Below are positions 2,419-51,371 of a stretch of 64,000 bases of DNA, piece after piece. Source of the DNA: Planctomycetota bacterium. Its GTDB lineage: Bacteria; Planctomycetota; PLA2. How positions within the stretch are numbered: position 1 is the first letter of the stretch; each line of letters begins with the position of its first letter. The position numbers and the translations under genes are program-made. A model generated the notes under the pieces. The model saw only the letters and a list, made by a program, of their open reading frames with translations, did not search any database and was not told where the DNA came from. The stretch spans positions 5,523-69,522 of the forward strand of contig JAJFFH010000049.1 in the NCBI GenBank assembly GCA_021776735.1, in the 5' to 3' direction.

Positions 2419-2468
2419 GCGATGAAGCCTAAACCCGCGTTGTCGGGCGTGCCACGCCCGTTTTGGGG

Positions 2469-3086: not shown

Positions 3087-3142
3087 GGGAAGGCGCTAGT
3101 GGAGCATGCCGCACCCCCAAGGGGGCGCGCCAGAGCAGTGTT

Positions 3143-14993: not shown

Positions 14994-17900
14994 ATGGACG
15001 ACGCGCCCGAGGTGGAAGCTCTGCTGGCCCATGGCCGCTTTCTTCGTGCTCTTGCGCGCGACATTCTGCGCGACGCGCATCAGGCGGAGGACGTCGTGCA
15101 GGAGGCGTGGTTACGCGCCAGGAATCGAGCGCCGCGCAAGGCCGGAGCGATGCGGGCATGGCTCGCGCGCATCGTGCGCAATCTGGCGCTCGATCGGGTC
15201 CGCGCGGAACAGGCGAGGCGCCAGCGGGAAGTAGCCGTGGGCCGGGCAGCCGTGCGTCAGGGACGGACGGCGATGTCTGTGCCGCCGCCGGATGTGGCCG
15301 CACGGTTCGAGGTGCAAAAACGCACCGCCGACGCCGTTCTGGATCTTCCCGAGCCGTATCGATCGACGATCCTGATGCGGTACTTCGAAGACCTCGCGCC
15401 CCGAGAGATTGCGCGGCGGGTCGGCGTGCCGGGCGCGACCGTGCGCACGCGTGTCCGGCGCGGCCTGGCGATGTTGCGCAAGGCGCTGGACGAACGGTAT
15501 GGCCGGCGCGCGTGGCCCGCACTACTGGTCGTGGGAGGAGGCGTGATGGCGAAACTCAAGGGAGCGGCTGTTGTTGCCGCCGTTCTGGCTGTGATTGCGT
15601 TGACCGTGTGGCGGGTGCGGGCGGACCCGGAGCGGACCCGCGGACGTTCCTCGGAGGGGCGCCGGGCCGCCTCGACATCATCCGGATTGACGTTGGCAGA
15701 CAGCGCCGGCGACACGGTGTCGCATCGGTCGCGTCGCATCCTGAGCGGCGTCGTTCTCGAGACGTCCGGCCGACCCGCGTCCGGGGCCGTCGTCCGCTGG
15801 CGGCTGCGGCAGCCCGACCTCGGTTGGCAGCCCTTTCGGCATTCCGCTTTGCACAGCGGCTCGGCGACGTGTGACGACGCCGGGCGATTTCGGCTCTCGG
15901 TAGATCGTCGTGCCGGATCCCTGTCCGCAGTCAAGGACGGCGATGTCTCTCCGGACTGGGAGGTCGGAACCGGCGATCCCGGCGCTGGCCTGGTGCTGCA
16001 CCTGCGTACACCTGTTTCGGTCGTGATCAGGGTGATTGAAAATCGCGATCGACCCGTCACCGGCGCCCAGGTTCGCGTGGCGCCAACTCTGCTCGGTCCC
16101 TTCGCCGGCGACGTGCACGACGGGGCGACGGATTCGAGCGGTCGCGTGCGGATCGCAGGAGTGCAGCCCGGGTTCGCGTCGGTCGTCGTTCGTGCCGCTG
16201 GGTATGTGACGGCGGTGCGGCGTGCCGTGCGATTGCCCGGGAATGACGTCGTCGTTCGTCTGCGTCGGGGCCGTCCATTCTTTGGCATTGTCTGCGATGC
16301 CGGCGCCGTGCCGGTACAAGACGCTCGTGTGCGTTGGGTCTCGGCGCATGAACACGCCCTGGGCGGTGAGCAGCGCACCGACGCCGGGGGGCGGTTCTTG
16401 GTTCCCGCGCTACCGGCTGGGAGGATCGCGTTTTTCGTGGAGGCCGGTGCGACAGGGCAGGCGTATCACGTCTGTGCGCGGCCGGCGGGCCGGAGCGTGG
16501 GGGAGCGGCAACGATTCGCGCTGGATCCGCCCGTCGGGCTCGAGGGGCGCGTGTGGATGGGCGAGAAGAGCGCGCGGCGGCCGCTGGTGGGAATCCCGGT
16601 ACGGGTTTCCGGCGCCGAGTTTTTTCATGTGACGAACCGCGGCACGTTCGGTGTTCGCGTCATTCGTTTCGGGTCTCTATCGCGGCGAGCCGTCACGGAC
16701 GCCGACGGTCGTTTTGCATTCGCCGGACTTTCGCACCGGGCCACGCAACTCAGCCTTGCGCCGCCGTTCTACGTTGTGAAGCGGCTTGCCGGCGGCGACG
16801 TGCAGGCGGCGCGTGCGGGCCGGGTGCACGGGACCGTTCGCGACGAAGCTGGTCGTCCGGTCGCCGGCGCGGTCGTCTTGCGTCCCGGCGGCGAGGGTTA
16901 TCGCAACATCACCAACGCCAAGGGACAGTATGAATTGTCCCTTGTTCCGGGGGCGAAACGGGCCGTGCGTCTCGACGTGTTCAAAGACGGATTCACGCGC
17001 GTGCAGCGAGGCGTCTCGTCGGCCGGAGCGATCGACTTTCGGTTGGCGCGAGTGTCTTCGATCGACGGCCGCGTTGTATCCGCCGCCGGGCGGCCTATTC
17101 TCGGCGTGAAGGTCGGACCCGTGCGCAACACGGTCTTCACCGATCGCGATGGTCGGTTTCGTTTCTTCCGAAGCCCGGAAACGACCAGCGTCCCGTTCGT
17201 CCACGAATCCTACGAGTATCGGAGCGTGGAGCTTTCGGACGAAGCGACAGTCGTGCTCTCGCCGGCCCCGGTCCGTGTCTTCGTCCGGGGGCGGGTTCTG
17301 GACACGAAGGGAGAGCCGATCGGAGAAGCGGACGTGACCTGGCGATCCGAAGGGAGGCACGAGGCTGCCATAACCGACGGCCGCGGCCGTTTCGAGCTCG
17401 GCCTCGCGGCGGGTGCCTGGACCGTCGTGGTCGAACGCGACGGCTACGCTCCGTGGCGGCGCGAGGATGTCGATGTGCCGCGGGCCGAGCTCCTGGAGAT
17501 CATCGTGCGATCGGGCTCGTCGATTGCCGGTCGCGTCGTGGACGCAGGGGGCGCCGCCGTCGCGGGAGCGACCGTGATCGTTTCTGGTCCCCGCGACGCT
17601 GGCAAGGCACGAAACTGGCGCGCGACGACCGGTGTGGACGGCGGCTTTCACGTGGACGATCTGCCCCATGGACAGTTCGCGGTCATTGCCGCCGGCCCGA
17701 GCTCGGCGGCCGGCCACGACCGGGCTCATGACGTAGCTGCGGACACGGTCGACCTGGAGCTGCGTTTTGCCGCGTCTCGAGCACTGAGCGGCCGCGTGTT
17801 CGATCCGGATGGCCGGCCGTGGCCGGGCGTCGGGATCGTCGTGCGCGTCACCGACGCGGACTTGCGGCGGCACCGACTGCGACGTGATCGTGTCAGCGCG

Positions 17901-18380
17901 GTAACGGACGGTGACGGCCGCTTTCACGTCAAGGGGCTCCACGGTACCCACGCCACGATCGCAGTTGACACGAATCGCGGCTCACGCGCGGAGACCTACA
18001 TGCAGCAGGATCTGCGCGTGGAGCCGGGACAGCGCGACATCGAGATTCGGGTGCGGACCGAACGGACGATCACCGGTCGCGTGCTGGATCCGAAGGGGGC
18101 GCCTGTCGCTGGCGTATGGGTCTCGATCACAGATGTCGCGACCAGCAGCGGCGCGCGGCTGACCACGGACGGCGATGGGCGGTTCCGATTCCATGGCCGG
18201 AGTCGGGCGACCTACGAGTTTTCCGCGTCCGCCCGCCGCATTCCGTTTGGCCCCGGCATGTGGGGCTTCGCGTGGGCAGGCAAAACGACCGCCGGTGCCG
18301 GGACGAATTCGGTGACGGTCGCGTTGCAGGTGGATCAAAACGCGGTTCGGATGGCGGAGCGCGCCCGCCGTGGCCGGTGA
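14994..18380 (+). CDS. ECF sigma factor fused in frame to a TM helix and about 900 aa of CarboxypepD_reg-like repeats
   Basis: N-terminal 180 aa carry sigma region 2 (EDVVQEAWLRA) and region 4 (LDLPEPYRSTILMRYFEDLAPREIARRVGVPGATVRTRVRRGLAMLRKAL). This is followed by TM helix MAKLKGAAVVAAVLAVIALTVW. Then come repeated GRVVDAGGAAVAGATVIVSGP / GRVLDPKGAPVAGVWVSI / TDGDGRFRF units. There is no stop codon between the parts. Confidence 0.8.
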   Translation: MDDAPEVEALLAHGRFLRALARDILRDAHQAEDVVQEAWLRARNRAPRKAGAMRAWLARIVRNLALDRVRAEQARRQREVAVGRAAVRQGRTAMSVPPPDVAARFEVQKRTADAVLDLPEPYRSTILMRYFEDLAPREIARRVGVPGATVRTRVRRGLAMLRKALDERYGRRAWPALLVVGGGVMAKLKGAAVVAAVLAVIALTVWRVRADPERTRGRSSEGRRAASTSSGLTLADSAGDTVSHRSRRILSGVVLETSGRPASGAVVRWRLRQPDLGWQPFRHSALHSGSATCDDAGRFRLSVDRRAGSLSAVKDGDVSPDWEVGTGDPGAGLVLHLRTPVSVVIRVIENRDRPVTGAQVRVAPTLLGPFAGDVHDGATDSSGRVRIAGVQPGFASVVVRAAGYVTAVRRAVRLPGNDVVVRLRRGRPFFGIVCDAGAVPVQDARVRWVSAHEHALGGEQRTDAGGRFLVPALPAGRIAFFVEAGATGQAYHVCARPAGRSVGERQRFALDPPVGLEGRVWMGEKSARRPLVGIPVRVSGAEFFHVTNRGTFGVRVIRFGSLSRRAVTDADGRFAFAGLSHRATQLSLAPPFYVVKRLAGGDVQAARAGRVHGTVRDEAGRPVAGAVVLRPGGEGYRNITNAKGQYELSLVPGAKRAVRLDVFKDGFTRVQRGVSSAGAIDFRLARVSSIDGRVVSAAGRPILGVKVGPVRNTVFTDRDGRFRFFRSPETTSVPFVHESYEYRSVELSDEATVVLSPAPVRVFVRGRVLDTKGEPIGEADVTWRSEGRHEAAITDGRGRFELGLAAGAWTVVVERDGYAPWRREDVDVPRAELLEIIVRSGSSIAGRVVDAGGAAVAGATVIVSGPRDAGKARNWRATTGVDGGFHVDDLPHGQFAVIAAGPSSAAGHDRAHDVAADTVDLELRFAASRALSGRVFDPDGRPWPGVGIVVRVTDADLRRHRLRRDRVSAVTDGDGRFHVKGLHGTHATIAVDTNRGSRAETYMQQDLRVEPGQRDIEIRVRTERTITGRVLDPKGAPVAGVWVSITDVATSSGARLTTDGDGRFRFHGRSRATYEFSASARRIPFGPGMWGFAWAGKTTAGAGTNSVTVALQVDQNAVRMAERARRGR
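15261..15278 (-). repeat. Dispersed motif copy inside the sigma-fusion gene linker (encodes G-R-T-A-M-S)
   Basis: GGACGGACGGCGATGTCT. Confidence 0.65.
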
Positions 18381-20948: not shown

Positions 20949-22196
20949 ATGAAAACGGGCGTCATCCTCCTCTTGCTCGGCGGCCTCGTGATGGCCCAGA
21001 GCAATCGCTTCGAAAAGCCGGTGCGGCTCAAGGCTGCCGGGAAGGTCATTACGACCGAGGTCGGCCACTCCGCGCCGTATGTGTACGATTGGGACGGCGA
21101 CGGCGTGCGTGATCTGTTGGTCGGGCAGTTCGGCCAGGGCAAGCTGCGCATCTTTCGCAATGCGGGCACGAACAAGGCGCCGCGCTACGAGGAGGGCGTG
21201 TGGTTTCAGGCGGGCGGTGCGCTGGCGACCGTTCCCGCGGGGTGATGCGTCGGTTTTGGTCCGCAGTTGGCGGACCTCAATGGCGATGGGCACGACGACG
21301 TCCTGAGCGGGTCGTACTGGCCCGGGAACATCTTTGTCTTTGACGGCGAAGGCAAAGCGATGTTTGCCAAGCGCCGGGCGCTCGTCGATGAATCGGGTCA
21401 AAAGCTGCACGGGGCGACGCCGTGGCCGGACGAGAAGACTCCCAACATGGACAGCCTCGCTGCGGCGCCGTGGCTCATCGACTTCGATGCCGACGGCGAT
21501 CTCGATCTCCTGATCGGCAACATCGCGGGGCGCGTCATCTTGATCGACAACCTGGGGTCGAAGAAGGCGCCGAAGTTTGCGCGTACGCGCGTGCGGCTGC
21601 AGGCGGGCGGCAAGGATATCCGCGTGCCCGGAGGAGATGCCGGTCCGACGACGGTGGATTGGGACGGCGACGGAAAGTGGGATCTGCTGGTCGGCGCCGG
21701 TGATGGATCGGTCTGGTGGTATCGCAATGTCGGACGCAACGGGGCGCCCGAGTTCGCCGCCGGTGTGAGGCTTATTGACGCGCCGGCACGGGGCGGCGGA
21801 CCGGTGCCGTGGACGGACGAGCCGAAGGAACACGGTTCGCGCACCAAGGTTCATGCGGTCGATTACGACGGCGACGGGCGCCTCGATCTGCTGGTGGGCG
21901 ATTTCAACATGCTCAAGCAGGCCGAGCCCAGGCTGAGCGAGACGCAGACCCAAAAGCGCGACGCGTTGCGTGCGGAGCGGTCCGAACTGCAGACGCGGCT
22001 CAACGACGTGTTCAAGAAGTACAAAACCTTGGAGGACAGGGCCAAACGTGAAGCGGCGATGAAGCCGATCACCGCGCGGTTCACCGCGATCTTCAACGAG
22101 CTGCGCCCCTTCGAGGCCAAAAACGACCCGACCGGATGGGTCTGGCTGTTCGTGCGCAAGACACCTGCCGACTCGAACGCGCCTGTGGGCGAGTAG
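20949..22196 (+). CDS. Secreted FG-GAP/VCBS-repeat (beta-propeller) protein interrupted by in-frame TGA at 21243..21245 (candidate Sec codon or pseudogene)
   Basis: ORFs 20919..21245 and 21267..22196 share a frame and are separated only by TGA. The repeat unit continues across it (...ATVPAG-U-CVGFGPQLADLNGDGHDDVL). A perfect 7-bp hairpin GGTCCGC-AGTTG-GCGGACC (21258..21276) lies 12 nt 3' of the TGA. Confidence 0.55.
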
Positions 22197-22217
22197 GACC
22201 GAGCTCCACCGACTCAC

Positions 22218-22263
22218 ACCTCCGGACCGGGATCACCTACAATCCCGGTCCGGAGGTTTTTCT
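22218..22263 (+). terminator. Rho-independent terminator (14-bp perfect stem + T5)
   Basis: ACCTCCGGACCGGGA-tcacctacaa-TCCCGGTCCGGAGGTTTTT directly after the FG-GAP gene. Confidence 0.8.
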
Positions 22264-22264
22264 T

Positions 22265-24082
22265 ATGAAGCTCGGTGGTTACGCGAATCGCATCGGACAT
22301 GTCGATCTGACGGCTTGGACGGTCGAAAACAAGCCCATCCGCGAGGAGTGGGCTCGAAAATACATCGGGGCGCGCGGCCTGGGCGTGCGCTACCTGCTCC
22401 AAAACGGGCCCGATGTCGATCCGCTCTCGCCCGACAACCTCCTGTGCTTCATGAACGGGCCGTTGACCGGCACGGCGGCGACGATGAGCGGTCGGCTCGC
22501 TGTTGTCACGAAGTCGCCGTTGACCGGCACCGCGACGGACAGCCATCAGGGCGGCTGGTCGGCGGCGCGGTTGCGTTGGGCGGGCTTTGACGGGCTCGTG
22601 ATTCGCGGCCGGGCGGACAAGCCGGCGTACCTCTACGTGTCGGACGACACCGTTGAGATTCGCGACGCCTCCGACGTGTGGGGCCAAGGGGTTCACGACA
22701 CCGTGGCGCACTTTCGCGCGAAGTACGGCGAGAAGGATCTGACCGTCATCGCCATCGGGCCGGCGGGCGAGAACCAGGTCCGTTTTTCGGCGTGGATCAA
22801 CGAGAACGATCGCGCGGCCGGGCGCGGCGGCACCGGCTGTGTCGGCGGCAGCAAGAACCTGAAGGCGATCGTCGTGAAGGCGAAGAAGGTGCTGCCGCAG
22901 CCCGCGGACAAGGACGCGTGGAAACCGGCGCACCAGCGCGCGCTCAAAACGATCATGGATCCCGGCAACGTGACCGCGCCAAACAAGGGCGGTCTGTCGG
23001 TCTACGGCACCAACGTGCTGATGAACATCACCAACACGATGGGGGCGCTGCCGACGAACAACTCCCAGACGACCTCGTTCGGCGAAGGCGGCGAGAAAAT
23101 CAGCGGCGAGTACGTCCGCGAGCACATGCTCGTCGAGGAGCCGACGTGCCACGCGTGCCCGGTCGCCTGCAAGAAGATGGTCGAGGTCAAGGACGGCCCG
23201 TTCAAGGGCGTGCGCATGGAGAGCTTCGAGTACGAGCCGGCGTGGTCGCTCGGCGCGAACTGCGGCAATGACGACGCGAACTCGATCGCGAAGATGATCG
23301 ATCTGGCCAACGACCACGGCTTCGATGCAATCGAGATCGGCGGCATCCTGTCGGCGTACATGGAAGCGACCGAACGCGGCCTTGCGGGCGACAACGGGCT
23401 CGCCTGGGGCGACGTGCCCGGCATGATTGCCACCATCGAACAAACCGTGCGTCGTGAGGGCATCGGCGACGTGCTGGCGAACGGCATCGAGCCGACCGCC
23501 ACGCATTTCGGCGCGCCCGAGACCGGCATGCACGTCAAAAACCAGGGCCTGCCGGCCTACGATCCGCGTGGCATGAAGGGCATGGGCCTGGCGTACGCCA
23601 CCTCGAACCGCGGCGCGTGTCACCTGCGCGCGTATACGCCGGCCAGCGAACTCGGCCTGATCCCGATGAAGACCGACCCGCTCGCCTGGAAGGGCAAGGG
23701 CGATCTCGTAAAACTGATGCAGGACCTGCACGCGTTTTCCGACAGCCTCGACCTGTGCAAGTTCAGCGCGTTCGCCGAGGGGGCGGAAGAGTACGCCCAA
23801 CAGTACTCGGCAATTGTCGGGGTGCCGTTCACGGTCGACGACGTGTTGCAGACCGGCGAACGCATCTACAACCTGGAGCGCCGCTACAACAACCTCGCGG
23901 GTTTCGGCGAGGGCGCCGACACCCTGCCGAAGCGCTACACGAGTGAAGCGTCCACGATGAAGGGCTCGGAAGGCCACGTCTGCGAGCTGAACGACATGCT
24001 CAAGGAGTACTACACCGCGCGCGGCTGGACCGACGGCGGCGTTGTGCCGGACGAGAAGCTGGCCGAGCTTGGGGTGACCTAA
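22265..24082 (+). CDS. aor: Aldehyde:ferredoxin oxidoreductase (tungsten-type AOR family)
   Basis: 606 aa. N-terminal AOR domain (GGYANRIGHVDLT...GARGLGVRYLL). Cys motifs EPTCHACPVACKKM. C-terminal AOR domains. Confidence 0.9.
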   Translation: MKLGGYANRIGHVDLTAWTVENKPIREEWARKYIGARGLGVRYLLQNGPDVDPLSPDNLLCFMNGPLTGTAATMSGRLAVVTKSPLTGTATDSHQGGWSAARLRWAGFDGLVIRGRADKPAYLYVSDDTVEIRDASDVWGQGVHDTVAHFRAKYGEKDLTVIAIGPAGENQVRFSAWINENDRAAGRGGTGCVGGSKNLKAIVVKAKKVLPQPADKDAWKPAHQRALKTIMDPGNVTAPNKGGLSVYGTNVLMNITNTMGALPTNNSQTTSFGEGGEKISGEYVREHMLVEEPTCHACPVACKKMVEVKDGPFKGVRMESFEYEPAWSLGANCGNDDANSIAKMIDLANDHGFDAIEIGGILSAYMEATERGLAGDNGLAWGDVPGMIATIEQTVRREGIGDVLANGIEPTATHFGAPETGMHVKNQGLPAYDPRGMKGMGLAYATSNRGACHLRAYTPASELGLIPMKTDPLAWKGKGDLVKLMQDLHAFSDSLDLCKFSAFAEGAEEYAQQYSAIVGVPFTVDDVLQTGERIYNLERRYNNLAGFGEGADTLPKRYTSEASTMKGSEGHVCELNDMLKEYYTARGWTDGGVVPDEKLAELGVT

Positions 24083-24221
24083 CGCCAGCTAGTCTAGTCG
24101 TGGTCAACGGACACGGCGGAATCGCCTGCGGCGATTTCCGTTAGCTCATGAGCCAGCCGGAGGAAGTCGGAATCTGCATTGGGGGCTCGGCGCGCGGGCC
24201 GGGCGGAGGTTCCGCGGACCG

Positions 24222-24566
24222 CTAGTTGGTCCCCGCCGCCAGCGGCCGGATGCGCTGGGCGATTTCTGCTCCAACGGTTTGTCGGGCCAAACGCAATTCG
24301 TAGTCTGCCTGTAGGCCGATCCAGATGTCTGCGGACACCGCGAAGTAGGTGCCGAGCCGCAGTGCCGTGTCGGCCGTGATTGCGCGCTTGCCGTTGACGA
24401 TTGCGCTGATTCGTCCGGGCGGCACGCAGAGTTCACGGGCGAGCCGGTTGATGCTGATGCCCAAAGGCTTCATGAACTCTTCCAAGAGGATTTCGCCCGG
24501 ATGAATCGGATCAAGTTGAGTCGGGCCGGCTCTCTTCGGGTGGGAACGCTTACGTTTCTGGGCCAT
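24222..24566 (-). CDS. higA: HigA-family antitoxin (XRE helix-turn-helix)
   Basis: HPGEILLEEFMKPLGISINRLARELCVPPGRISAIVNGKRAITADTALRLGTYF. Confidence 0.9.
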   Translation of the reverse strand: MAQKRKRSHPKRAGPTQLDPIHPGEILLEEFMKPLGISINRLARELCVPPGRISAIVNGKRAITADTALRLGTYFAVSADIWIGLQADYELRLARQTVGAEIAQRIRPLAAGTN

Positions 24567-24577
24567 GGTGAACTCCC

Positions 24578-24637
24578 TAGTGATCGTCGATAGTCTCCAC
24601 TTCGTAGGTGTCCTTGCAACGGAACGTCCGAATCATT
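24578..24637 (-). pseudogene. higB: higB toxin remnant (19 codons: MIRTFRCKD-TYEVETIDDH)
   Basis: Own translation. HigB-like N-terminus (MIRSFRHKG...) is fused to a HigB-like C-terminus (...AYDVDYVDYH). This is consistent with an internal deletion. The region is AT-rich. Confidence 0.5.
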
Positions 24638-24698
24638 CCAGTCGGATGGTATTATGTCTCGCGTAATACGTCAAGCGTAATGGTCGGGCCTGGGTTCC

Positions 24699-24956
24699 TC
24701 AGCCGCCTGCGCGCAGCAGTTTTTTTTCGAGGACCTCGTGCATGTGCGCGAGCGCGGCGGGTTCGCCGGTCAGCTGCACGCGCACGCGGCCGACCGTGAG
24801 CGACCCGACGCGGTGATCGGCGAGCGGCGTCAGATGCACCGTCCAACCCTCGCCCGCAACCGTGCGATCGTCCTTCGCGGTGCCGCCTTCCTCGACGAGG
24901 TACTCGCGCAGGAGCCAGAGCGGGATGCCCGTGACGTCGCGGGTAAAGTCAGCCAT
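24699..24956 (-). CDS. Small hypothetical protein ending in Gly-Gly
   Basis: 85 aa, non-biased composition, C-terminus LLRAGG. Function not recognised. Confidence 0.4.
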   Translation of the reverse strand: MADFTRDVTGIPLWLLREYLVEEGGTAKDDRTVAGEGWTVHLTPLADHRVGSLTVGRVRVQLTGEPAALAHMHEVLEKKLLRAGG

Positions 24957-24959
24957 GGC

Positions 24960-25229
24960 CTATCCGCCCGCCACCGCGGGAAAGACATCGAGAACATCGC
25001 CGTCCGCCAGCTTTGTCTCAAGGGCTTGCTCCAGGTAGGGAGCATCGCGGCCGTTGACAAACACATGGACGTGCGGCCACAACTCGCCGCGGTCGTTCAG
25101 CAACTCCGCGCGCATGCCCGGAAAGCGCTCCGCGATCGTGTCGATGACTTCGGCGACCGTGCCCGGTTCGAACTCGGTGCGCTTTTGGCCCGCGATCTCG
25201 CGCAGCGTTGCGTAGAAGTTGACGATCAC
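24960..25229 (-). CDS. MoaD/ThiS-family ubiquitin-like sulfur-carrier protein
   Basis: 89 aa. MIVNFYATLREIAG...GDVLDVFPAVAGG, a C-terminal GG beta-grasp signature. Confidence 0.8.
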   Translation of the reverse strand: MIVNFYATLREIAGQKRTEFEPGTVAEVIDTIAERFPGMRAELLNDRGELWPHVHVFVNGRDAPYLEQALETKLADGDVLDVFPAVAGG

Positions 25230-26237: not shown

Positions 26238-28529
26238 ATGAGATACATACTCGCCCTTGCCCTGTTGGCCTCCGCCTGCTCCTCTTCGTCGCGTCTTGCC
26301 CTGATCGCCGTGGAGCACGACGGATCCCGCAACGGGATCGTCGTCATCCGCTTTGACCGGCCGGTCGATCCGGCGACGGTGAACGCGGCGAACGTGTCGA
26401 TTCCGGATGCCGTCGGGGCTCTGTCGGTCGTCGGCAACGAGGTGCGCTTTGAGCCGCGGCTGCCGGTGCTTGCCGATACGAGCGACGCCGGACTCGAACC
26501 CGACCGCGCGTACGAAGTCACGGTGTCAGCCGACGTGCGCGGACTCGACGGCAGCGGCATGGGTGGCACCTTCGCCGCGACAATCGCGACCGGTCCGGGC
26601 TTTTCGGATCCGGTCGAGGGCGCGCTGGCGGTGGCCTCCACGACGCCGGCTCAGGGCGAGAGCGGTGTGGGCACCATCGTTGGGATCGGGCCGGGTCCAT
26701 GCGCGGTCTTTGTTCGCCTCGACCCGATCGTGATCGAGTTCGACCAGCCGGTTGCGCCTCCGAGTGTGGCCGGCAGCGTGACCGTCAGAAACCTCACCGA
26801 ACCCGACTTTCGTCTGCAGGTCATGACGAAGCTGCTGCAGGGGGGGGCGGGGGCGCCGCGGATCGAGCTTGCGGTGGAGGGAGTAGACACGCCGTTCGAG
26901 AATGGTGTACTGCTCGGACGGTACGAGGTGGTGATCGATGGCTTGACCGATCTGGGCGGTGCGGCCCTGTCCTTCACGTTCTCGTTTTCCACTGTGGCCC
27001 AGGTGTCCCTGCCGACCGACGTGCGATTCTCGTTCGCCGACGATGACGCGGACGGTGGTGTCGATGTAGGCGGGCTGGCTACGGCGATCAACGATACCAA
27101 TGAGCTCCCCAGTCACGTCGGACCGTTCCTGGGCGGATTGCTGACGCGCCAGCCGGGGGTCGATCCGGCTTCGCCGCTCGCCGTCGAGACGACGGCCAAC
27201 TGGGGCGGCGTCGCGTACTGGACCGGCCGCGAGATGCGTTACAACAACGCGACCTCGATCGCGGCGTCGTTGCGTCTGCGCGGCGGTACGGTCGGTGCGG
27301 CGACTCCTGTCTTGTCTCCGCTCGCGGGGACCGGCGCCAACGGCGACCTCCTCCTGACCGGGACGGAGACGCGCGACCTGTTCACCGGCGACGCGACGAC
27401 GGGACCGATCGCGCACCACTTCCGCCGCATTCGCATCACCGCCACGGATGCAGGACGCCCGGTCTTGAAGGGCCACGGGCTCTTCCCGCTCGTGCTCTTC
27501 GCCGAGGAGGACGCCGTGATCACCGGCGACATCGACGTGCGCGGCGTGCAAGCCTCCGGCGAGGCGGGCGGAGCCGCGGGACCGGGTGGTGGACCCGGCG
27601 GGGACGCGAACGAGAGAGGTGCGTCTCCGCACAACGTGCACGGCGCGATTGCCGGCGCAACCAGCGGTCAGGGCGCGGCGGCTCTCGACCCGAGCGGCGA
27701 CTTTACCGATCCCGACGTGCTCGCGTGTGGAGGTGCAGGCGGACAAGGGGCGTTCGCAAATGGGGGGGGCGGGGGCGGCGGCCTCGTCTGTCTGGCCAGC
27801 GCGGGCGATCTCGTTCTGGCCGCGGACGGTCACGCGGCGTCGGTGCACGCAAACGGTGGCGCCGCGATCGGGGGCGCGCAGTCCGGCGGCGACGGCGGAA
27901 TCGTGCTCGTCAGTGGAGGCACGTTGACCCGCGGCGGTGCGACGCTGGACGTCGGATCCGGTGGGCGCATTTACCTGGCCGATGCGCCCGGCACCGGTGG
28001 CATTGAGGTGTACGGCGACGAGCCGCGCGAGCCCGGCTTCGGCCGCAGCCAGATCGTTTCGGAGTTCCTCGACATGTTCGCCGACGCGTCGACGCTGGAC
28101 AGCGTCCGGGTGTTGTCGAACGCGCCGCGTTTTCCGTACGACATCGCCGACGCCGCGCAGCGCACGATCCGCGTTTTCGTCGATAGCACGGACGCTCGCC
28201 CCGACGGCAGTCCTGATCTCGACGAGATCCGCACCATCGAGATCGATTTGCATGTACGCACACCCGATGGAGCCGCGACATCGGCCGCGCAGTTCGAGGC
28301 GTTCGCAATCGTGCCGAGCGACGCCGATCCCGCACGTTTTTGGCGTGTCCGTATCGTGTTCGACCTTGCAAATGTGGGCGATCCCGACGCCCTGAAGAAC
28401 ACGTTCGCGCTACCAGGAGCGGCCACCTTGCCGATCGCCCCGGACAACTCGTTTGCCGATCAGACCGAGGCCCCCGAAGGCGTCCCCGCCGTCAGCGAAA
28501 TCCGTCTACGAATCACGCCGGGTTGCTAG
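26238..28529 (+). CDS. Large lipoprotein with Gly-rich beta-helix-like repeats (hypothetical)
   Basis: Lipobox LALALLASAC. Gly-rich region GGAGGQGAFANGGGGGGGLVCLASAGDLVLAADGH... Confidence 0.75.
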   Translation: MRYILALALLASACSSSSRLALIAVEHDGSRNGIVVIRFDRPVDPATVNAANVSIPDAVGALSVVGNEVRFEPRLPVLADTSDAGLEPDRAYEVTVSADVRGLDGSGMGGTFAATIATGPGFSDPVEGALAVASTTPAQGESGVGTIVGIGPGPCAVFVRLDPIVIEFDQPVAPPSVAGSVTVRNLTEPDFRLQVMTKLLQGGAGAPRIELAVEGVDTPFENGVLLGRYEVVIDGLTDLGGAALSFTFSFSTVAQVSLPTDVRFSFADDDADGGVDVGGLATAINDTNELPSHVGPFLGGLLTRQPGVDPASPLAVETTANWGGVAYWTGREMRYNNATSIAASLRLRGGTVGAATPVLSPLAGTGANGDLLLTGTETRDLFTGDATTGPIAHHFRRIRITATDAGRPVLKGHGLFPLVLFAEEDAVITGDIDVRGVQASGEAGGAAGPGGGPGGDANERGASPHNVHGAIAGATSGQGAAALDPSGDFTDPDVLACGGAGGQGAFANGGGGGGGLVCLASAGDLVLAADGHAASVHANGGAAIGGAQSGGDGGIVLVSGGTLTRGGATLDVGSGGRIYLADAPGTGGIEVYGDEPREPGFGRSQIVSEFLDMFADASTLDSVRVLSNAPRFPYDIADAAQRTIRVFVDSTDARPDGSPDLDEIRTIEIDLHVRTPDGAATSAAQFEAFAIVPSDADPARFWRVRIVFDLANVGDPDALKNTFALPGAATLPIAPDNSFADQTEAPEGVPAVSEIRLRITPGC

Positions 28530-29161
28530 CCCGTTGTGTCCGGGTCCACGAGGTCCACGTTGACCGTTTCGGTTTGGTCTACGACCGGGGAGGAGCCGTC
28601 CGGGAACAGGCGTTCGATCTGGAGGCGGACCGGGAACACGCTCACGTTGTCTTCGGTGTCGCCGAAGAACGAGAACTGACTTGTGCGTACCGACAAGAAC
28701 AACAAGTTGTCGACGCCGTCTTCAAAGAACTGTTCGACGCTGATCTCGTCCACGAAAAAGCCCGTGCCGCCGGTCGGCTGGAAGAATGCGAGGCCGCTCG
28801 GGCGGCCCGCGCGCGGGTCGCCGTTGTTGAGAAACACGAGACTGCCCTCCGCGCCCTGCCACACGACGTTGTCCAAAATGACCTGGTACAGATCGCTGTT
28901 GAAGCAAAAACCGAGGCCCTCTTCGGCGACGAACACGATGCGGTCCGCGGTGCGGTAGGCATAAAACGCGTCGATGCGCGCGCAGAGCGTCCCGCCCGGA
29001 CCGAGACCCTGGCCGTGGATCATGGTGCCCGGCAGGATCTCGTCGGTCACGATCGTCACGGTAGCGACGAGGCCCTGGGAGCCGAAGATCAAGAGCGTGC
29101 TACTGGTGCCGCCGCCGCATCCGGCGAGCAGGGCGAGGAAGAGGATCAGGGTGCGGATCAT
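28526..29161 (-). CDS. Lipoprotein (hypothetical)
   Basis: Lipobox LALLAGCGGG. 211 aa. Confidence 0.7.
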   Translation of the reverse strand: MIRTLILFLALLAGCGGGTSSTLLIFGSQGLVATVTIVTDEILPGTMIHGQGLGPGGTLCARIDAFYAYRTADRIVFVAEEGLGFCFNSDLYQVILDNVVWQGAEGSLVFLNNGDPRAGRPSGLAFFQPTGGTGFFVDEISVEQFFEDGVDNLLFLSVRTSQFSFFGDTEDNVSVFPVRLQIERLFPDGSSPVVDQTETVNVDLVDPDTTG

Positions 29162-30381
29162 TTGTGGTCACCGTAACCGGCGCCGGAAGGACGGATGACC
29201 CAATCCGCCTCGTAGAACTCGAGCAGCGTCGGCGGAATTCTCACACCCGGTGACGCGAGCCTGAAGTAGAACCCGACCTTGCCCGGTTTGGGGTCCTTGC
29301 CGCGTCCGTCGTTACCCGTGCGGCCCGTACGCTTGCCGACCGCGATCACCTTGAAGGCGACAAAACGCTGCCGCTTCAGGTCGTATGAAACCGTGCCTCG
29401 CAGCGTCGCGTTCATCGTGCGCGGCCAGTCGCGGTCCGGCGTCCAATCCGTCTTTCCTAGGAGCCACGGGCCTTTGGCGACAGCCCTCGTTGTCCCCGAA
29501 ACGGTCAGCCTCAAGAGATCGCCGTCCGTACGCTTTTTTTCGAGGGTTATCTCCGCGTGCACGATCTCGCTCGCGGCGAACGGAAGTGTCTGGCCGCGTA
29601 CGTTGTCGATCAGGTGAAACCGCGCCAGGCGCAGCGCCAGGCTGCGCGGCATTTTCTTTGTCTTGTCGGTCTTGCCGGGGAGCAACGAATTCGCCTCGTC
29701 TTTCGTGAACCAGACGAAGTCGCGGTTCCAGCGGCGGTCGCCCCCCTTGATGTCGCGCACGAACCGCTCGAGTATCAGGCCGCCTTTCGGGTAGCTCTGC
29801 TCCCAGCGATGTTTGGGCGTGAACTTGGACCCGGGCGGGAGTCTCCTGTCGGCGGGTTCCAACGCCTTCCATTTTTTCTTCGCGAGATCGAGCATCGCCA
29901 CGATCTTTTCCACATTGCCGGTGTTCGCCGAGGCGAGCAGCTTGCCACTCGGTGCGATGACGTAGTAGCCCTGCTTGGTGCCGCCCTTGCCCTTGTAGTG
30001 GCCGAGGACGGCGAAGCTCTGGAAGAAGCGGCACTCCGGCCCGGTGCCGTTCTGCAGCCGCCAGGTTTCGTCGGCGGCGAGGGTGAAGTGTTTTTTCAAG
30101 AGCCCGCGCACAAGCGGGTCGCGAAAGACGGACCGCCGGCCCGTCACGCCGTTGTTTCACGTGCAGCCGAGTGGGTGGCCGTTCATGACCCACAAAAACA
30201 ACGGTTGCTGCCGTGCGTGCGCCGTCTTCAGGCCCTCCGCGAAGCTGGGGAACCACGGCAGGCGGTCGGCAGCGAGCTCCTTTTTGGTCGGAAGGATGTG
30301 ATCGCCGCGCGGGTACACGCCCGGCGGGTCTTGGGCGGCAACGACGGTGGTCAGGAAGAGGACCGCGATGACAGAGCGCAT
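29158..30381 (-). CDS. Exported Thioredoxin_7/DsbD-gamma-like protein with in-frame UGA (30157..30159) read as selenocysteine (G-C-T-U); paralog of 3817..4974
   Basis: ORFs 30157..30381 (signal peptide MRSVIAVLFLTTVVAAQ) and 29158..30147 share a frame and are separated only by TGA. Read-through gives ...QQPLFLWVMNGHPLGCT-U-NNGVTGRRSVFRDPLVRGLLKKHFTLA, which aligns with Thioredoxin_7. An 8-bp hairpin (30127..30145) lies 11 nt 3' of the UGA. Confidence 0.7.
29517..29542 (+). repeat. Dispersed motif variant inside the 29158..30381 gene
   Basis: GATCGCCGTCCGTACGCTTTTTTTCG. Confidence 0.45.
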
Positions 30382-40557: not shown

Positions 40558-42969
40558 TTGCCGGAAGTCGCATTCCATGATGGGGGCGTGAGGGCGTGGG
40601 CTGGACTACTTCTGGTTGTGCTCGCCGCGTCGCTTGCCAGGACGCTGCCGGCGTGGGACCACGTTTTCGTCGGTGAGCGTGGCATCCGGCTCCTCGGGTC
40701 GGACGCGTACTATCACCTGCGCCACGCCGGACACATGCGGACCGACGGTGCCCTGCGGCGCGACGACGTCTGGACGCACTATCCGACCGGCCAGCGTGCC
40801 ACGACCCCCGGACTCTTTGCCGTGGCCGTCGCCGCGCTACCCAACGCGGCCCTCCCCTTTGTTCCCCCCGCGCTGGGGGCCCTCGCGTTGCTGGCTCTTT
40901 TTGTCTTGTTGCGCCGCCTCGCCGGATCGGGAGCCGCGCTGCTTGGCGTGGCCTGCCTCGCTCTTTACCCGGGGCAGTTTCTCTCGCGGTCGCTGCTCGG
41001 TTTTTTGGATCATCACGCCGCGGAGGTTCTGCTCTCCCTGCTCTCGGTGCTCGGATTCTTGCGTTGCCTCGATCGCGCAGAGTCCGACGCGCCGCCGAAG
41101 TGGTGGCGCCCCGCTTTCCTCGAAGCGCTACCCATGGCGGTCTTTTTGTTCACCTGGTCGGGAGCGCCCGTCCACCTGCTGCTCCTGGCCCTGAGTGTCG
41201 CGGTCCTCGCCATCGTGCGGCTGGCGATCCACGGCGACTCCGGATGGCTGCCCGAGGCGTGCGCACGCTTTGGTTTCGGGCTCGTCCCCCTCGTGGCGAT
41301 TCCGGCCTGGATCGCTCCCTGGCTCGTGATGCGGCCCGACCTGTTCGCCGCCGTGCTCGCCGGGTGTGCCGCGTTCGCGTGCGCCGCGGCACCCGTGCTA
41401 TGGGCCGTCCGCCGTTACGGCCGTCCCCGCCTTGCCGCCGCGCTGTTGATGATTGCGATGGCGGCGGTCCTTGTGGCCGGCGCCAACACCAGCGCCGGGG
41501 CGCTGCTCTTGAGGACCCGGACGCGGCTCGTCTCCGAGCACCTGACCATCACGCCCGCTTCGGTTTTTGTGGACTACGGCACCATGCTCGTGCTCGCCGT
41601 CGGGGGACTTGCGGCTGCTGGAGTGTGCGTGCGCCGGGACCGCGGGCGACGCGTGTTCGGCACGACGTACGCCCTGTTGGTCGTCGCGCTGTGGTGGAAG
41701 ACGCGTGATTTTGCGTACATGGCCGGACCGTTCCTCGCGCTCCTGGCCGGGTTCGCCTGGTTGCCGACCCTGCGGCTCCTGCAGCGCCCGCGGAGGGCAA
41801 CCGTCGCGGGCGTCGTTACGCTTGCGTTGCTCGCCGGACCGATCTGGCCCTTGGGCCTGTCGCCGCGCCCGTGGCCGTCGCGGTCCTACGTGGATCGGAT
41901 CGTGGTCTGCACGGATGCCTGGGCCGAGGCTGTTTCCTGGCTGCGCACCAAGACGCCACCGCCTACGATCGATGCCGACAAGCCCGTCGCGCCGTTTGGG
42001 GACTTTGCGTATCCGACGGGAACCTACGGCGTGTGGTCGGCCTGGGACTATGCGAATCTCGTCAACGCGTTCGGCCGCCGGCCCGTAGTCTGGAGTCAGG
42101 GGGCGGCGCGCCATCCGGTGCAATGGATGTTGGAGCGCGACGAGAACGAAGCCCTCTCGCTGCTTCAGCAGTCGTGCCGGGGGCCGGAGCGCGTTCGCTA
42201 CGTCATGCTCGACGCGAACACCATGGGCGACAACTATCTCGCGCATCTGACGGCCGCCGGCCATGACATCGCGGCGCTGGGTCGCGGCCTCGTCGATCGG
42301 CCCGTCGGTCAGGCGACGTTCGGCGAGCGCCTGGACAACACGGTGGCAGCTCGCCTGTACTTTCGGGACGGCGATGGACTGCGGCGCTTTCGTCTGGTCT
42401 ATGCCACGACCCAGAGGACGTTCGTGGGCTACGTCGCGCAGACCCGTGGTGCGGGGGCGGTGATTCGCCGCTGCGCGATCCCGGCGGACGGTTTCGACAC
42501 GCGGATGCGACTCGAGATGATCGCCCAACGCGGCGGCGTGACCGAGGTGAAAGATGTCGGCTACGTCTACGGTGGCGTGGTGGAGCAGACCATCAAGGTG
42601 TTTGAGTGCGTCGAGGGCGCACGGGTGCAGGGCCGGACGCGCGCGCGTGCGGTCGTCACGGCCGGCCTCGACTTGATCGACGCGGCGAACAGCCGACGAC
42701 ACTACACGCAAGAGACCCGTGCCGGCGCCGACGGCCGATTCTCGATGCGCATTCCGTACGCTACCGACGCGCGCGCGGGGAGCGTTCGGGCGCGCGGCAA
42801 GCTGGCTCTCGTGGCGCGCGTCTCCGAGCGCAGCGTGATCGCGCGATCGGCGGTCCGGATCACCGAGCAACAGGTGCAGAGCGGCGGCATGGTCGAGGTC
42901 GATCTGCTGCCCACTCAAGCGCCCCCGACGCCCCCGACCCCGATCCCGCCGCCGAAAGGAGACGGGTAG
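40558..42969 (+). CDS. STT3/PglB/AglB-like oligosaccharyltransferase (multi-TM N-domain + periplasmic C-domain, divergent WWDYG motif)
   Basis: About 13 predicted TM helices. First loop SDAYYHLRHAGHMRTDG resembles the AglB/STT3 D-x-x-YH-R loop. C-domain YGVWSAWDYANLVNAFG aligns with the WWDYG block. Confidence 0.55.
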   Translation: MPEVAFHDGGVRAWAGLLLVVLAASLARTLPAWDHVFVGERGIRLLGSDAYYHLRHAGHMRTDGALRRDDVWTHYPTGQRATTPGLFAVAVAALPNAALPFVPPALGALALLALFVLLRRLAGSGAALLGVACLALYPGQFLSRSLLGFLDHHAAEVLLSLLSVLGFLRCLDRAESDAPPKWWRPAFLEALPMAVFLFTWSGAPVHLLLLALSVAVLAIVRLAIHGDSGWLPEACARFGFGLVPLVAIPAWIAPWLVMRPDLFAAVLAGCAAFACAAAPVLWAVRRYGRPRLAAALLMIAMAAVLVAGANTSAGALLLRTRTRLVSEHLTITPASVFVDYGTMLVLAVGGLAAAGVCVRRDRGRRVFGTTYALLVVALWWKTRDFAYMAGPFLALLAGFAWLPTLRLLQRPRRATVAGVVTLALLAGPIWPLGLSPRPWPSRSYVDRIVVCTDAWAEAVSWLRTKTPPPTIDADKPVAPFGDFAYPTGTYGVWSAWDYANLVNAFGRRPVVWSQGAARHPVQWMLERDENEALSLLQQSCRGPERVRYVMLDANTMGDNYLAHLTAAGHDIAALGRGLVDRPVGQATFGERLDNTVAARLYFRDGDGLRRFRLVYATTQRTFVGYVAQTRGAGAVIRRCAIPADGFDTRMRLEMIAQRGGVTEVKDVGYVYGGVVEQTIKVFECVEGARVQGRTRARAVVTAGLDLIDAANSRRHYTQETRAGADGRFSMRIPYATDARAGSVRARGKLALVARVSERSVIARSAVRITEQQVQSGGMVEVDLLPTQAPPTPPTPIPPPKGDG

Positions 42970-49246: not shown

Positions 49247-49256
49247 GGTCCTGGTC

Positions 49257-50330: not shown

Positions 50331-50336
50331 GGCCCG

Positions 50337-51353: not shown

Positions 51354-51371
51354 CGGCCGGGCAAGCGCGTC

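What the first reader, a model, noticed from the sequence alone, without database searches (positions are those of the whole stretch)
29158..30381. Third unannotated selenoprotein, paralog of 3817..4974 (G-C-T-U) with a strong downstream hairpin
ORFs 30157..30381 (signal peptide) and 29158..30147 share a frame and are separated only by TGA 30157..30159. The read-through ...QQPLFLWVMNGHPLGCT-U-NNGVTGRRSVFRDPLVRGLLKKHFTLA... aligns residue for residue with the 3817..4974 protein. In both, the U-to-F spacing is 11 and both follow LPWFPSF/RWFLPGQF. It also matches the Thioredoxin_7 pattern. Here the motif is C-x-U. An 8-bp stem with triloop (GACGGGCC-GGC-GGUCCGUC, 30127..30145) begins 11 nt 3' of the UGA, which is textbook SECIS placement.
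Basis: partly seen in the sequence, partly recalled or inferred. Interest (0 to 1): 0.8.

Follow-up and report, generated by a model that had tools for sequence, protein, structure and literature searches.

The report
Unannotated exported thioredoxin-fold selenoprotein gene
The two "genes" at 29158..30381 are one gene for an exported thioredoxin-fold protein whose in-frame TGA almost certainly encodes selenocysteine, and it represents a large family, mostly from Planctomycetota, that I could not find in Pfam, NCBIfam or a 2026 list of known selenoproteins.

Summary
On the minus strand, ORF 30381..30160 (signal peptide) and the ORF ending at 29158 share a frame and are split only by TGA 30159..30157. 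An 8-bp hairpin (30145..30127) starts 11 nt after it.

The selenoprotein reading is strongly supported.
- All 79 related loci carrying this region have TGA at that codon, never TAA, TAG or a sense codon. The family's true terminators are mixed (TAG 28, TGA 24, TAA 24).
- The protein is conserved on both sides: ..KPLLLWVMNGHPLGCT-U-(G/N)NGVAGRRSVW...
- No downstream start codon is conserved.
- Rare full-length homologs carry Cys at that position (C-N-C, S-T-C).
- The hairpin is conserved with compensatory changes. In AT-rich homologs it keeps G/C at synonymous stem positions.
- It meets every criterion of the published bacterial SECIS model.
- One relative sits 1.8 kb from a Sec-containing selD.

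An AlphaFold model places the Sec-equivalent residue in the β1–α1 loop of a Thioredoxin_7/DsbD-γ-like domain, followed by a β-rich domain with no convincing PDB match.

The "paralog" at 3817..4974 is only a remote homolog of the N-terminal domain, but it also looks like a selenoprotein.

Sec machinery could not be checked in this genome, and the biochemical function is inferred.

The parts
29158..30381 (-). Complete selenoprotein gene. It encodes a 407-residue precursor with Sec at residue 75. The terminal stop is TGA at 29158..29160.
   Evidence: Single frame interrupted only by TGA 30157..30159. The same architecture is found in 79 of 79 related loci.
30331..30381 (-). N-terminal signal peptide (MRSVIAVLFLTTVVAAQ). 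The cleavage site is approximate.
   Evidence: A hydrophobic N-terminus is read directly from the sequence. Homologs start with signal or lipoprotein-type leaders such as MKRLSLLVIFLIGC. No signal-peptide predictor was available, so this is an inference.
30157..30159 (-). In-frame TGA, read as selenocysteine 75
   Evidence: TGA in 79 of 79 homologous loci, while the terminal stops of the same genes are TAG 28, TGA 24, TAA 24. Distant full-length homologs P0243 and P0254 have Cys at this position.
30163..30165 (-). Cys73 codon, two residues before Sec (C-x-U motif)
   Evidence: Present in 78 of 79 loci; L078 has Pro. Nearly invariant in alignment A4.
30127..30145 (-). SECIS-like hairpin: 8-bp stem and GGC loop, starting 11 nt 3' of the UGA
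   Evidence: fold; 88.6% paired, 5 of 8 pairs with compensatory changes. G/C kept at synonymous stem positions in 21 of 21 AT-rich homologs. It meets the published bSECIS criteria.
29842..30264 (-). Thioredoxin-fold domain (Thioredoxin_7/DsbD-γ-like), about residues 40-180. It is split by the TGA: β1 is upstream and α1 downstream.
29161..29841 (-). C-terminal β-rich domain of unknown function, residues 181-407

Best explanation
Region 29158..30381 (minus strand) is one gene for an exported selenoprotein of about 390 residues after signal-peptide removal.

Decoding (inferred). During translation, the UGA at 30159..30157 is read as selenocysteine. The conserved hairpin 11 nt downstream would act as a bacterial SECIS element, recruiting SelB·GTP·Sec-tRNA(Sec) to the ribosome.

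Protein (shown by sequence and model). It has a signal peptide, a thioredoxin-fold domain of the Thioredoxin_7/DsbD-γ type, and a β-rich C-terminal domain of unknown fold family.

Active site (inferred). Sec75 lies in the loop between β1 and α1, where Trx-fold redox enzymes carry their catalytic Cys. Cys73 lies two residues upstream (C-x-U). The family's invariant residues flank it in sequence: Asn67, His69, Arg82, Asp104-Glu105-x-Trp-Arg-Leu-Gln110 and Gln137.

Function (inferred). The most likely role is an extracytoplasmic thiol/selenol redox enzyme. Sec would be the attacking or redox-active residue, and Cys73 a resolving partner forming a selenenylsulfide. The C-terminal domain would bind the substrate or a partner.

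Shown: one continuous conserved coding frame, TGA specificity, RNA-level selection on the hairpin, Sec/Cys pairs, and the fold.
Inferred: SelB dependence, export, and the redox chemistry.
For: 1. TGA is at the same codon in 79 of 79 related loci, mostly Planctomycetota MAGs. The flanking protein motif is conserved on both sides.
2. Ten invariant residues lie upstream of the TGA in alignment A4.
3. True terminators of the same genes are TAG 28, TGA 24, TAA 24. The first in-frame start after the TGA ranges from codon 4 to codon 92.
4. Among the proteins listed by the two database searches, nearly all homologs are C-terminal fragments beginning just after the TGA. The profile search counted 1573 hits at E<=1e-3.
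5. Five rare full-length homologs have sense codons at this position, two of them Cys: P0243 A-C-N-C and P0254 G-S-T-C.
6. Hairpin: 88.6% paired against at most 53% for slid controls. Compensatory changes occur at 5 of 8 pairs, including C-G to U-A at two third-codon positions.
7. In 21 AT-rich homologs (mean GC3 0.28), the two third-position stem columns are G/C in 21 of 21.
8. The hairpin meets the bSECIS model in PMC13188914: loop 3-9 nt, stem 4-16 bp, G in the first two loop positions, 16-37 nt from UGA to loop, MFE <= -7.5 kcal/mol.
9. The model has a Trx fold with the TGA position in the β1–α1 loop, so neither half could fold alone.
10. Locus L011 has a selD gene (TIGR00476, 324.7 bits) that itself carries an in-frame TGA at the catalytic position. 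It lies 1.8 kb from the family gene.
11. A second, remotely related TGA-containing gene in the same window also has its TGA and hairpin conserved elsewhere.
12. Some Planctomycetes are documented to have complete Sec machinery (PMC4807772).
Against: - No selA, selB, selC or selD was found in the 64-kb window. ARAGORN and Rfam find only tRNA-Pro. The Pfam scans covered about 30 of its ORFs, and the rest of this genome could not be searched.
- The hairpin's free energy is not distinguishable from shuffled sequence (z -0.52).
- Part of the hairpin's conservation is confounded with the conserved peptide GRRSV.
- Cys-containing homologs are few and distant. Three other full-length homologs have Ala, Arg or Ser at the Sec position, so the residue is not indispensable for every member.
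- No conserved gene neighbourhood points to a function.
- There is no experimental evidence of selenium incorporation.
Confidence: 0.88

Rival explanations
1. These are two independent genes. A small secreted 74-residue peptide ends at a genuine TGA stop, and a separate 329-residue protein starts at GTG 30147. This is how gene callers annotate the region.
For: This is how every public gene call treats it: P0264 (74 aa) and P0001 (329 aa). GTG 30147 is available as a start in this window.
Against: - The stop is TGA in 79 of 79 loci, although real terminators of the same genes use all three codons.
- The position of the first downstream start codon is not conserved: codon 4 to codon 92.
- The Trx fold would be cut between β1 and α1.
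- Full-length homologs with sense codons at this position exist.
Confidence: 0.03
2. The UGA is read through without selenium. One route is hairpin-stimulated near-cognate insertion of Trp, Cys or Arg. Another is a SelB-like system delivering Cys. Either would give a full-length non-seleno protein.
For: Sec machinery is not demonstrated for this genome. Some homologs tolerate Cys, Ala, Arg or Ser at the position. From general knowledge, UGA-to-Cys recoding with tRNA and SelB variants has been proposed in a few bacteria.
Against: - Strict TGA conservation together with a hairpin meeting all bSECIS criteria is the signature of SelB-dependent decoding.
- The position is the catalytic site of a Trx fold next to a Cys, as in many known selenoproteins.
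- A relative is linked to a Sec-containing selD.
Confidence: 0.06
3. It is a pseudogene or a sequencing or assembly error that introduced a stop into an ordinary thioredoxin-like gene.
For: The window comes from an apparently metagenome-assembled contig, and a single in-frame stop is the commonest kind of artefact.
Against: The identical stop is at the identical codon in 79 independent assemblies, a single-cell genome (L066) and a cultured isolate (RAS1, L084). Both flanks are under strong purifying selection.
Confidence: 0.01

Closest known systems
Bacterial Trx-fold selenoproteins decoded through an in-ORF SECIS. [quoted passage not shown]
   Same: UGA inside the ORF with a stem-loop immediately downstream. 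Sec lies at the β1–α1 active-site loop of a thioredoxin fold, next to a Cys. Several of these families are also exported. The C-x-U spacing has precedents: Sec.1, rhodanese form 3, UshA-like and ferredoxin-thioredoxin reductase.
   Different: No sequence model of any of these families matches, whether Pfam or NCBIfam, even at E<=1. The motif context MNGHPLGCTU(G/N)NG is distinct. The protein carries an additional 230-residue β-rich domain with no convincing structural relative. Sec forms vastly outnumber Cys forms.
Thioredoxin_7 (PF13899) / DsbD-γ-like / AGR-type thioredoxin-fold domains, for example PDB 3f9u, 2lst and 3ph9
   Different: The hits are below Pfam's threshold. The canonical W-C-x-x-C is replaced by a longer loop, NGHPLG-C-T-U-GNG. 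The family signature DEVWRLQ and the C-terminal domain do not come from these Trx families: no Pfam or NCBIfam model matches the full protein.
E. coli fdhF-type bacterial SECIS and the consensus bSECIS model
   Same: A stem-loop starts 11 nt after UGA. The apical loop is small, with G in its first positions. It lies 19 nt from UGA to loop, within the 16-37 nt range.
   Different: The stem and loop sequences are family-specific (GGGCC/GGUCC core, loop (C)GNNN). No bulged U is evident. SelB binding is untested.
The second TGA-containing gene of this window (3817..4974) and its homologs
   Same: Signal peptide, Trx-like N-terminal domain, (C/S)-x-U motif with Sec at the aligned position (hhalign 90.4%). 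It has its own conserved TGA and hairpin.
   Different: About 23% identity over the N-terminal domain only, and BLASTP detects nothing. The motif is KG(R/K)W-U-PGAEP. The C-terminal half carries TPR annotations on some homologs rather than the β-rich domain.

Membership tests
Bacterial selenoprotein gene (SelB/SECIS-dependent UGA recoding) | In-frame UGA inside a continuous, conserved coding frame | tested here: met
   the protein motif is conserved on both sides, and TGA is present in 79 of 79 loci.
Bacterial selenoprotein gene (SelB/SECIS-dependent UGA recoding) | Homologs with Cys at the position of the UGA (Sec/Cys pair) | tested here: met
   P0243 (..PLACNCPSE..) and P0254 (..PLGSTCSNG..). 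These are few and distant. Three other full-length homologs have Ala, Arg or Ser.
Bacterial selenoprotein gene (SelB/SECIS-dependent UGA recoding) | bSECIS stem-loop downstream of UGA: loop 3-9 nt, stem 4-16 bp, G in the first two loop positions, 16-37 nt from UGA to loop, MFE <= -7.5 kcal/mol | tested here: met
   Criteria from PMC13188914. The window has an 8-bp stem, GGC loop, 19 nt spacing and -17.3 kcal/mol. The hairpin is conserved with covariation.
Bacterial selenoprotein gene (SelB/SECIS-dependent UGA recoding) | The genome encodes selA, selB, selC (tRNA-Sec) and selD | not testable with these tools
   None in the 64-kb window among the ORFs scanned. Indirect support: a Sec-containing selD lies next to a family member in L011, and there is a second TGA gene in the window.
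Bacterial selenoprotein gene (SelB/SECIS-dependent UGA recoding) | Selenium actually incorporated at the UGA | not testable with these tools
   Needs 75Se labelling or mass spectrometry.
Thioredoxin_7 (PF13899) family | Sequence match to the Pfam model above the gathering threshold | tested here: not met
   No hit for the window protein. Six of 28 family members give sub-threshold hits, best E 0.0063.
Thioredoxin_7 (PF13899) family | Thioredoxin fold most similar to Thioredoxin_7/DsbD-γ structures | tested here: met
Thioredoxin_7 (PF13899) family | C-x-x-C (or C-x-x-S) redox motif at the N-terminus of α1 | tested here: not met
   The motif is C-x-U within a longer loop, NGHPLGCTU(G/N)NG.
Any selenoprotein family with an NCBIfam or Pfam model in the 2026 catalogue (PMC13188914 Table 1) | Match to the family's HMM | tested here: not met
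   There were zero NCBIfam and zero Pfam families at E<=1 for the full read-through protein with Cys in place of Sec. This covers, for example, Trx7/PDZ NF041199, GOS_B NF041374, GOS_C NF045500 and Sec.1/Sec.2 PF13192. There were also none for the full-length homologs P0250 and P0254.
Paralog of the 3817..4974 gene | Significant sequence similarity over the protein | tested here: inconclusive
   BLASTP finds nothing and a profile against the single sequence gives 1.7%. A profile-profile comparison of the N-terminal domains gives 90.4%, E 1.4e-6, with Sec aligned to Sec. The C-terminal halves are unrelated.

The most novel reading that the evidence does not exclude
This gene and its remote relative at 3817..4974 may define a previously unrecognised superfamily of exported Thioredoxin_7-like selenoenzymes with a (C/S)-x-U active site. 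Members are almost always the Sec form; Cys forms are rare. The superfamily is abundant in Planctomycetota and in AT-rich MAGs and a single-cell genome labelled Marinimicrobia/Neomarinimicrobiota. Members are fused to different substrate-binding modules, so the chemistry may differ from known thiol-disulfide exchange, for example a periplasmic peroxidase or reductase for a specific substrate.
Probability: 0.45. Interest if true: 0.7.

Novelty: new member of a known kind. Interest (0 to 1): 0.6.

Why it matters
Gene callers split this gene into a 74-residue "hypothetical" and a truncated C-terminal fragment. The profile search found 1573 relatives at E<=1e-3 and 1159 at E<=1e-10 among representatives clustered at 50% identity, and almost all of the best 150 are such fragments. 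A large, conserved protein family is therefore systematically mis-annotated.

Recognising it would have several effects.
- It adds a family, and probably a second related one, to the roughly 119 known prokaryotic selenoprotein families.
- It would add to the selenoproteins known from Planctomycetota and their relatives.
- It gives a case where the Sec form dominates so strongly that searches relying on Sec/Cys pairs could overlook it.
- It supplies a conserved SECIS variant for improving prediction models.

A cultured carrier, Phycisphaerae bacterium RAS1, makes the prediction experimentally testable.

Tried and rejected
- **Pfam and NCBIfam on the full read-through protein:** no hits. The protein could not be assigned to any described family.
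- **Homolog search with the 74-residue N-terminal ORF alone:** it found only itself. The word index was too insensitive, so that search was wasted.
- **Submitting the U-to-C read-through sequence to the representative search:** I used the alignment of C-terminal fragments instead and looked for hits with N-terminal extensions.
- **afdb50 fold search:** not available.
- **Conserved gene neighbourhood:** none. The window's neighbours are a lipoprotein, a Big_5 protein, a Zn peptidase and an SSF symporter. They are not conserved next to homologs, apart from a divergent symporter in 11 loci.
- **Domain fusions as a functional clue:** too heterogeneous to point to one function. They include Exo_endo_phos, PQQ propeller, FGE-sulfatase with Planctomycete cytochrome domains, kinase with Kelch, and SecDF head.
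- **tRNA-Sec in the window and in the first 60 related loci:** none.
- **Full-text search for the motif strings HPLGCT and NGHPLG:** no occurrences.
- **Hairpin stability as evidence:** rejected, because it is not different from shuffles.
- **Genome-wide UGA reassignment:** rejected. This gene itself ends in TGA, and 24 of 76 family genes terminate with TGA.
Full report
**1. The observation**

On the minus strand, ATG 30381 opens an ORF that encodes MRSVIAVLFLTTVVAAQ...QQPLFLWVMNGHPLGCT. It is interrupted by TGA at 30159..30157. The same frame continues NNGVTGRRSVFRDPLVRGLLKKHF... for 332 codons to TGA 29160..29158. The read-through product has 407 residues, with the TGA at codon 75 and Cys at 73 (C-x-U).

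The hairpin GACGGGCC-GGC-GGUCCGUC occupies 30145..30127. It begins 11 nt after the UGA and is part of the minimum-free-energy fold (-17.3 kcal/mol). In this 66% G+C sequence that stability is unremarkable: z = -0.52, and 57 of 200 shuffles fold as well. The hairpin by itself is therefore not evidence.

**2. Comparative evidence that this is one gene**

- **Protein searches.** A search with the read-through sequence returned 233 homologs. All of the best 120 cover only the C-terminal 52-81% (mostly 64-81%) of the query, and every one of the eight retrieved begins just after the TGA position. An exhaustive profile search found 1573 relatives (E<=1e-3) among 50%-identity representatives. Again almost all of the 150 listed start right after that position.
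- **DNA of related loci.** I fetched 80 related loci. About 49 are labelled Planctomycetota lineages and 7 Marinimicrobia/Neomarinimicrobiota, and the rest are unclassified or carry odd labels. In every one of the 79 loci that include the region, the upstream frame continues into a conserved N-terminal part: signal or lipoprotein leader ... IPW..sF.eGl..A....KPLLLWVMNGHPLGCT. The interrupting codon is TGA in 79 of 79.
- **Stops and starts.** The true terminators of the same genes are TAG 28, TGA 24, TAA 24. The first in-frame ATG/GTG/TTG after the internal TGA lies anywhere from codon 4 to codon 92. The downstream part therefore has no conserved start of its own, and UGA is not reassigned genome-wide.
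- **Conservation upstream.** Ten invariant residues lie upstream of the TGA: Trp43, Pro60, Trp64, Met66, Asn67, Gly68, His69, Pro70, Gly72 and Thr74.
- **A cultured isolate.** Phycisphaerae bacterium RAS1 shows the same arrangement.

**3. Sec/Cys pairs**

Among the 150 best profile hits, a handful are full-length with an N-terminal extension. The five I retrieved have a sense codon at the Sec position:
- P0243: ...GNPLACNCPSE... (C-x-C)
- P0254: ...GHPLGSTCSNG... (S-x-C)
- P0250: Ala
- P0255: Arg
- P0182: Ser

Two of the five therefore have Cys. This is the classical criterion for a selenoprotein family. Cys forms are rare and distant here.

**4. The hairpin as RNA**

In a gap-free alignment of 71 sequences, the 8-bp stem is paired in 88.6% of cells, against 32-53% when the 3' partners are slid. 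Five of 8 pairs show compensatory double changes. These include C-G to U-A between two third-codon positions (columns 21 and 27). None of 500 column shuffles reaches the observed covariation score. RNAalifold recovers the core of the stem.

Because the stem encodes the conserved peptide G-R-R-S-V, I checked synonymous sites. In 21 AT-rich homologs the gene-wide GC3 averages 0.28. Yet the third-position stem columns 21 and 27 are G/C in 21 of 21. This indicates selection on the RNA rather than on the peptide.

The element meets all criteria of the published bacterial SECIS model, as quoted from PMC13188914:
- loop of 3-9 nt: GGC, or CGNNN when the closing pair is open
- stem of 4-16 bp
- G in the first two loop positions; G23 of the alignment is invariant
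- 16-37 nt from UGA to loop: 19 nt here
- MFE <= -7.5 kcal/mol

From general knowledge, 11 nt is also the spacing required between the UGA and the minimal stem-loop in E. coli fdhF.

**5. Sec machinery**

The window has only tRNA-Pro. None of about 30 ORFs I scanned is a sel gene. The rest of this genome could not be searched, so this criterion is untested for this organism. The indirect support is good.
- In L011, a selD gene (TIGR00476, 324.7 bits against a cut-off of 125) lies 1.8 kb downstream of the family gene. It carries an in-frame TGA at the catalytic position...YAACAG-TGA-AAKMPQ..., the UxxK motif. An organism with a Sec-containing SelD must decode Sec.
- The window holds a second TGA-interrupted gene whose TGA and hairpin are conserved in other genomes (section 7).
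- Complete Sec machinery has been reported in several Planctomycetes (PMC4807772).

**6. What the protein is**

Neither Pfam nor NCBIfam matches the full protein. That includes the models for the described selenoprotein families.

- **Whole-protein model.** An AlphaFold2 model of the full-length homolog P0250 is confident (pLDDT 90.7, pTM 0.89).
- **Position of Sec.** The Sec-equivalent residue lies in the β1–α1 loop, three to four residues before α1. This is the region of the catalytic Cys in Trx-fold enzymes. The TGA thus cuts the fold between β1 and α1.
- **Context.** Fusions in some homologs are heterogeneous but all extracytoplasmic in flavour. Gene neighbourhoods are not conserved.

**7. 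The "paralog" at 3817..4974**

BLASTP between the two read-through proteins finds nothing. A family profile against the single sequence gives 1.7% probability. A profile-profile comparison of the N-terminal domains gives 90.4% probability, E 1.4e-6, over 125 columns at 23% identity. It aligns G-C-T-U with G-(S/C)-W-U, so Sec matches Sec.

The two are therefore remote homologs in the Trx-like domain only. Their C-terminal halves differ: β-rich here, with TPR annotations on some homologs of the other gene.

That second gene is itself a good selenoprotein candidate.
- In L047, L081 and L082, the short upstream ORF with a signal peptide ends in TGA at the same codon: ...CATKG(R/K)W-TGA-PGAEPMRAGAF....
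- The hairpin GAGGGCA-GG-UGCCUUC is identical in the window, L081 and L082.
- In L047, the two families sit about 800 bp apart on opposite strands.

**8. Mechanism proposed**

*Shown.* The frame is a single conserved coding frame. The stop is TGA-specific. The hairpin is under RNA-level selection. Sec/Cys pairs exist. The fold is Trx with the recoded residue in the active-site loop.

*Inferred.*
- SelB·GTP·Sec-tRNA(Sec) binds the hairpin and inserts Sec at codon 75.
- The precursor is exported through its signal peptide.
- Sec75 is the redox-active residue, and Cys73 can form a selenenylsulfide with it. Cys73 is present in 78 of 79 loci, with Pro in L078.
- The many invariant polar residues flanking the site in sequence suggest a dedicated active site rather than a generic disulfide exchanger. 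These are Asn67, His69, Arg82, Asp104, Glu105, Trp107, Arg108, Gln110 and Gln137. I cannot name the substrate.

**9. Rivals**

- **Two separate genes.** This is contradicted by the TGA specificity, the lack of a conserved start, the split fold and the full-length homologs.
- **Selenium-free read-through or UGA-to-Cys.** This cannot be excluded without experiments, but it is disfavoured by the complete bSECIS signature and the selD linkage.
- **Pseudogene or sequencing error.** This is excluded by conservation across 79 assemblies, one single-cell genome and one isolate.

**10. Novelty**

The mechanism is the ordinary bacterial one. The family appears undescribed.
- It matches no HMM of the 119 families and subfamilies catalogued in 2026 (PMC13188914).
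- BSepDB was built from previously reported families.
- The GOS survey's new-family screen was presented in terms of Sec/Cys pairs, and such pairs are rare here.
- The motif strings do not occur in the searchable literature. Figures and alignments are not searchable, so prior description cannot be fully excluded.

I rate it a new member of a known kind, of moderate-to-good interest to selenoprotein and Planctomycetota specialists.

Noticed in passing
window 3817..4974 (-), TGA at 4717..4719, hairpin about 4683..4700: This is a second TGA-interrupted gene: signal peptide, Trx-like domain with ...AGSW-U-PGAEPMRAGAF..., and a C-terminal half with TPR annotations on some homologs. The same TGA occurs in L047, L081 and L082. 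The hairpin GAGGGCAGGUGCCUUC is conserved in L081 and L082. All 13 database homologs are called from the Met six codons after the TGA. It is probably another unannotated selenoprotein family, remotely related to the one studied here (hhalign 90%).
   Followed up: partly
L011 4600..5664 (+), TGA at 4651..4653: A selenophosphate synthetase gene (selD, TIGR00476 324.7 bits) carries an in-frame TGA at the catalytic Cys/Sec position (CAG-U-AAK). It lies 1.8 kb downstream of the family member in that MAG contig, separated by a large minus-strand ORF of 568 codons (2792..4498) that I did not characterise.
   Followed up: yes
L047 about 1975..2800 (-) and 3423..4418 (+): Members of the two TGA-containing families lie next to each other on opposite strands, about 800 bp apart, in one Planctomycetota MAG.
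   Followed up: partly
window 8569..9438 (+): A secreted protein with two YHS domains matches NCBIfam NF041384, "YHS domain-containing (seleno)protein" (205.9 bits). Here both copies have Cys (GGYC, GGWC), so it is the Cys form of a family that is a selenoprotein elsewhere.
   Followed up: partly
window 28526..29161 (-): A 211-residue putative lipoprotein (MIRTLILFLALLAGCGGG...) has a start codon that overlaps the selenoprotein's stop (ATGA), which suggests translational coupling. It has no Pfam or NCBIfam match and is not conserved next to homologs in other genomes.
   Followed up: partly
window 40558..42969 (+) and 42971..53144: An STT3/AglB-like oligosaccharyltransferase (PF02516, PF18079) is followed by a sugar transferase, several glycosyltransferases, an ABC ATPase and a radical-SAM/SPASM protein. 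This may be a protein-glycosylation or polysaccharide cluster.
   Followed up: no
window 14994..18380 (+): An 1128-residue protein has an N-terminal ECF-type sigma-70 region 2/4, followed by six CarboxypepD_reg repeats and Ig-like domains. Fusing a sigma factor to a long extracytoplasmic-type repeat region is unusual.
   Followed up: no
window 22136..25229: An aldehyde:ferredoxin oxidoreductase (AFOR_N and AFOR_C) lies beside a ThiS/MoaD-like small protein and a DUF1952 protein on the opposite strand.
   Followed up: no
Proteins P0204, P0170, P0161, P0237, P0243 (homologs from the representative search): Some family members are fused to other modules. These are FGE-sulfatase with Planctomycete cytochrome c and PSD domains, a PQQ β-propeller, Exo_endo_phos, Ser/Thr kinase with Kelch repeats, and a SecDF P1 head.
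   Followed up: partly
L005, L028, L029, L031, L034, L053, L066 and other AT-rich loci: A clade of AT-rich homologs (gene GC3 0.18-0.37) includes MAGs, and one single-cell genome, labelled Marinimicrobia/Neomarinimicrobiota. The family is therefore not confined to Planctomycetota, unless those bins are mislabelled. In this clade the conserved second Cys (..DPEC..) is replaced by D-A-S/T.
   Followed up: no
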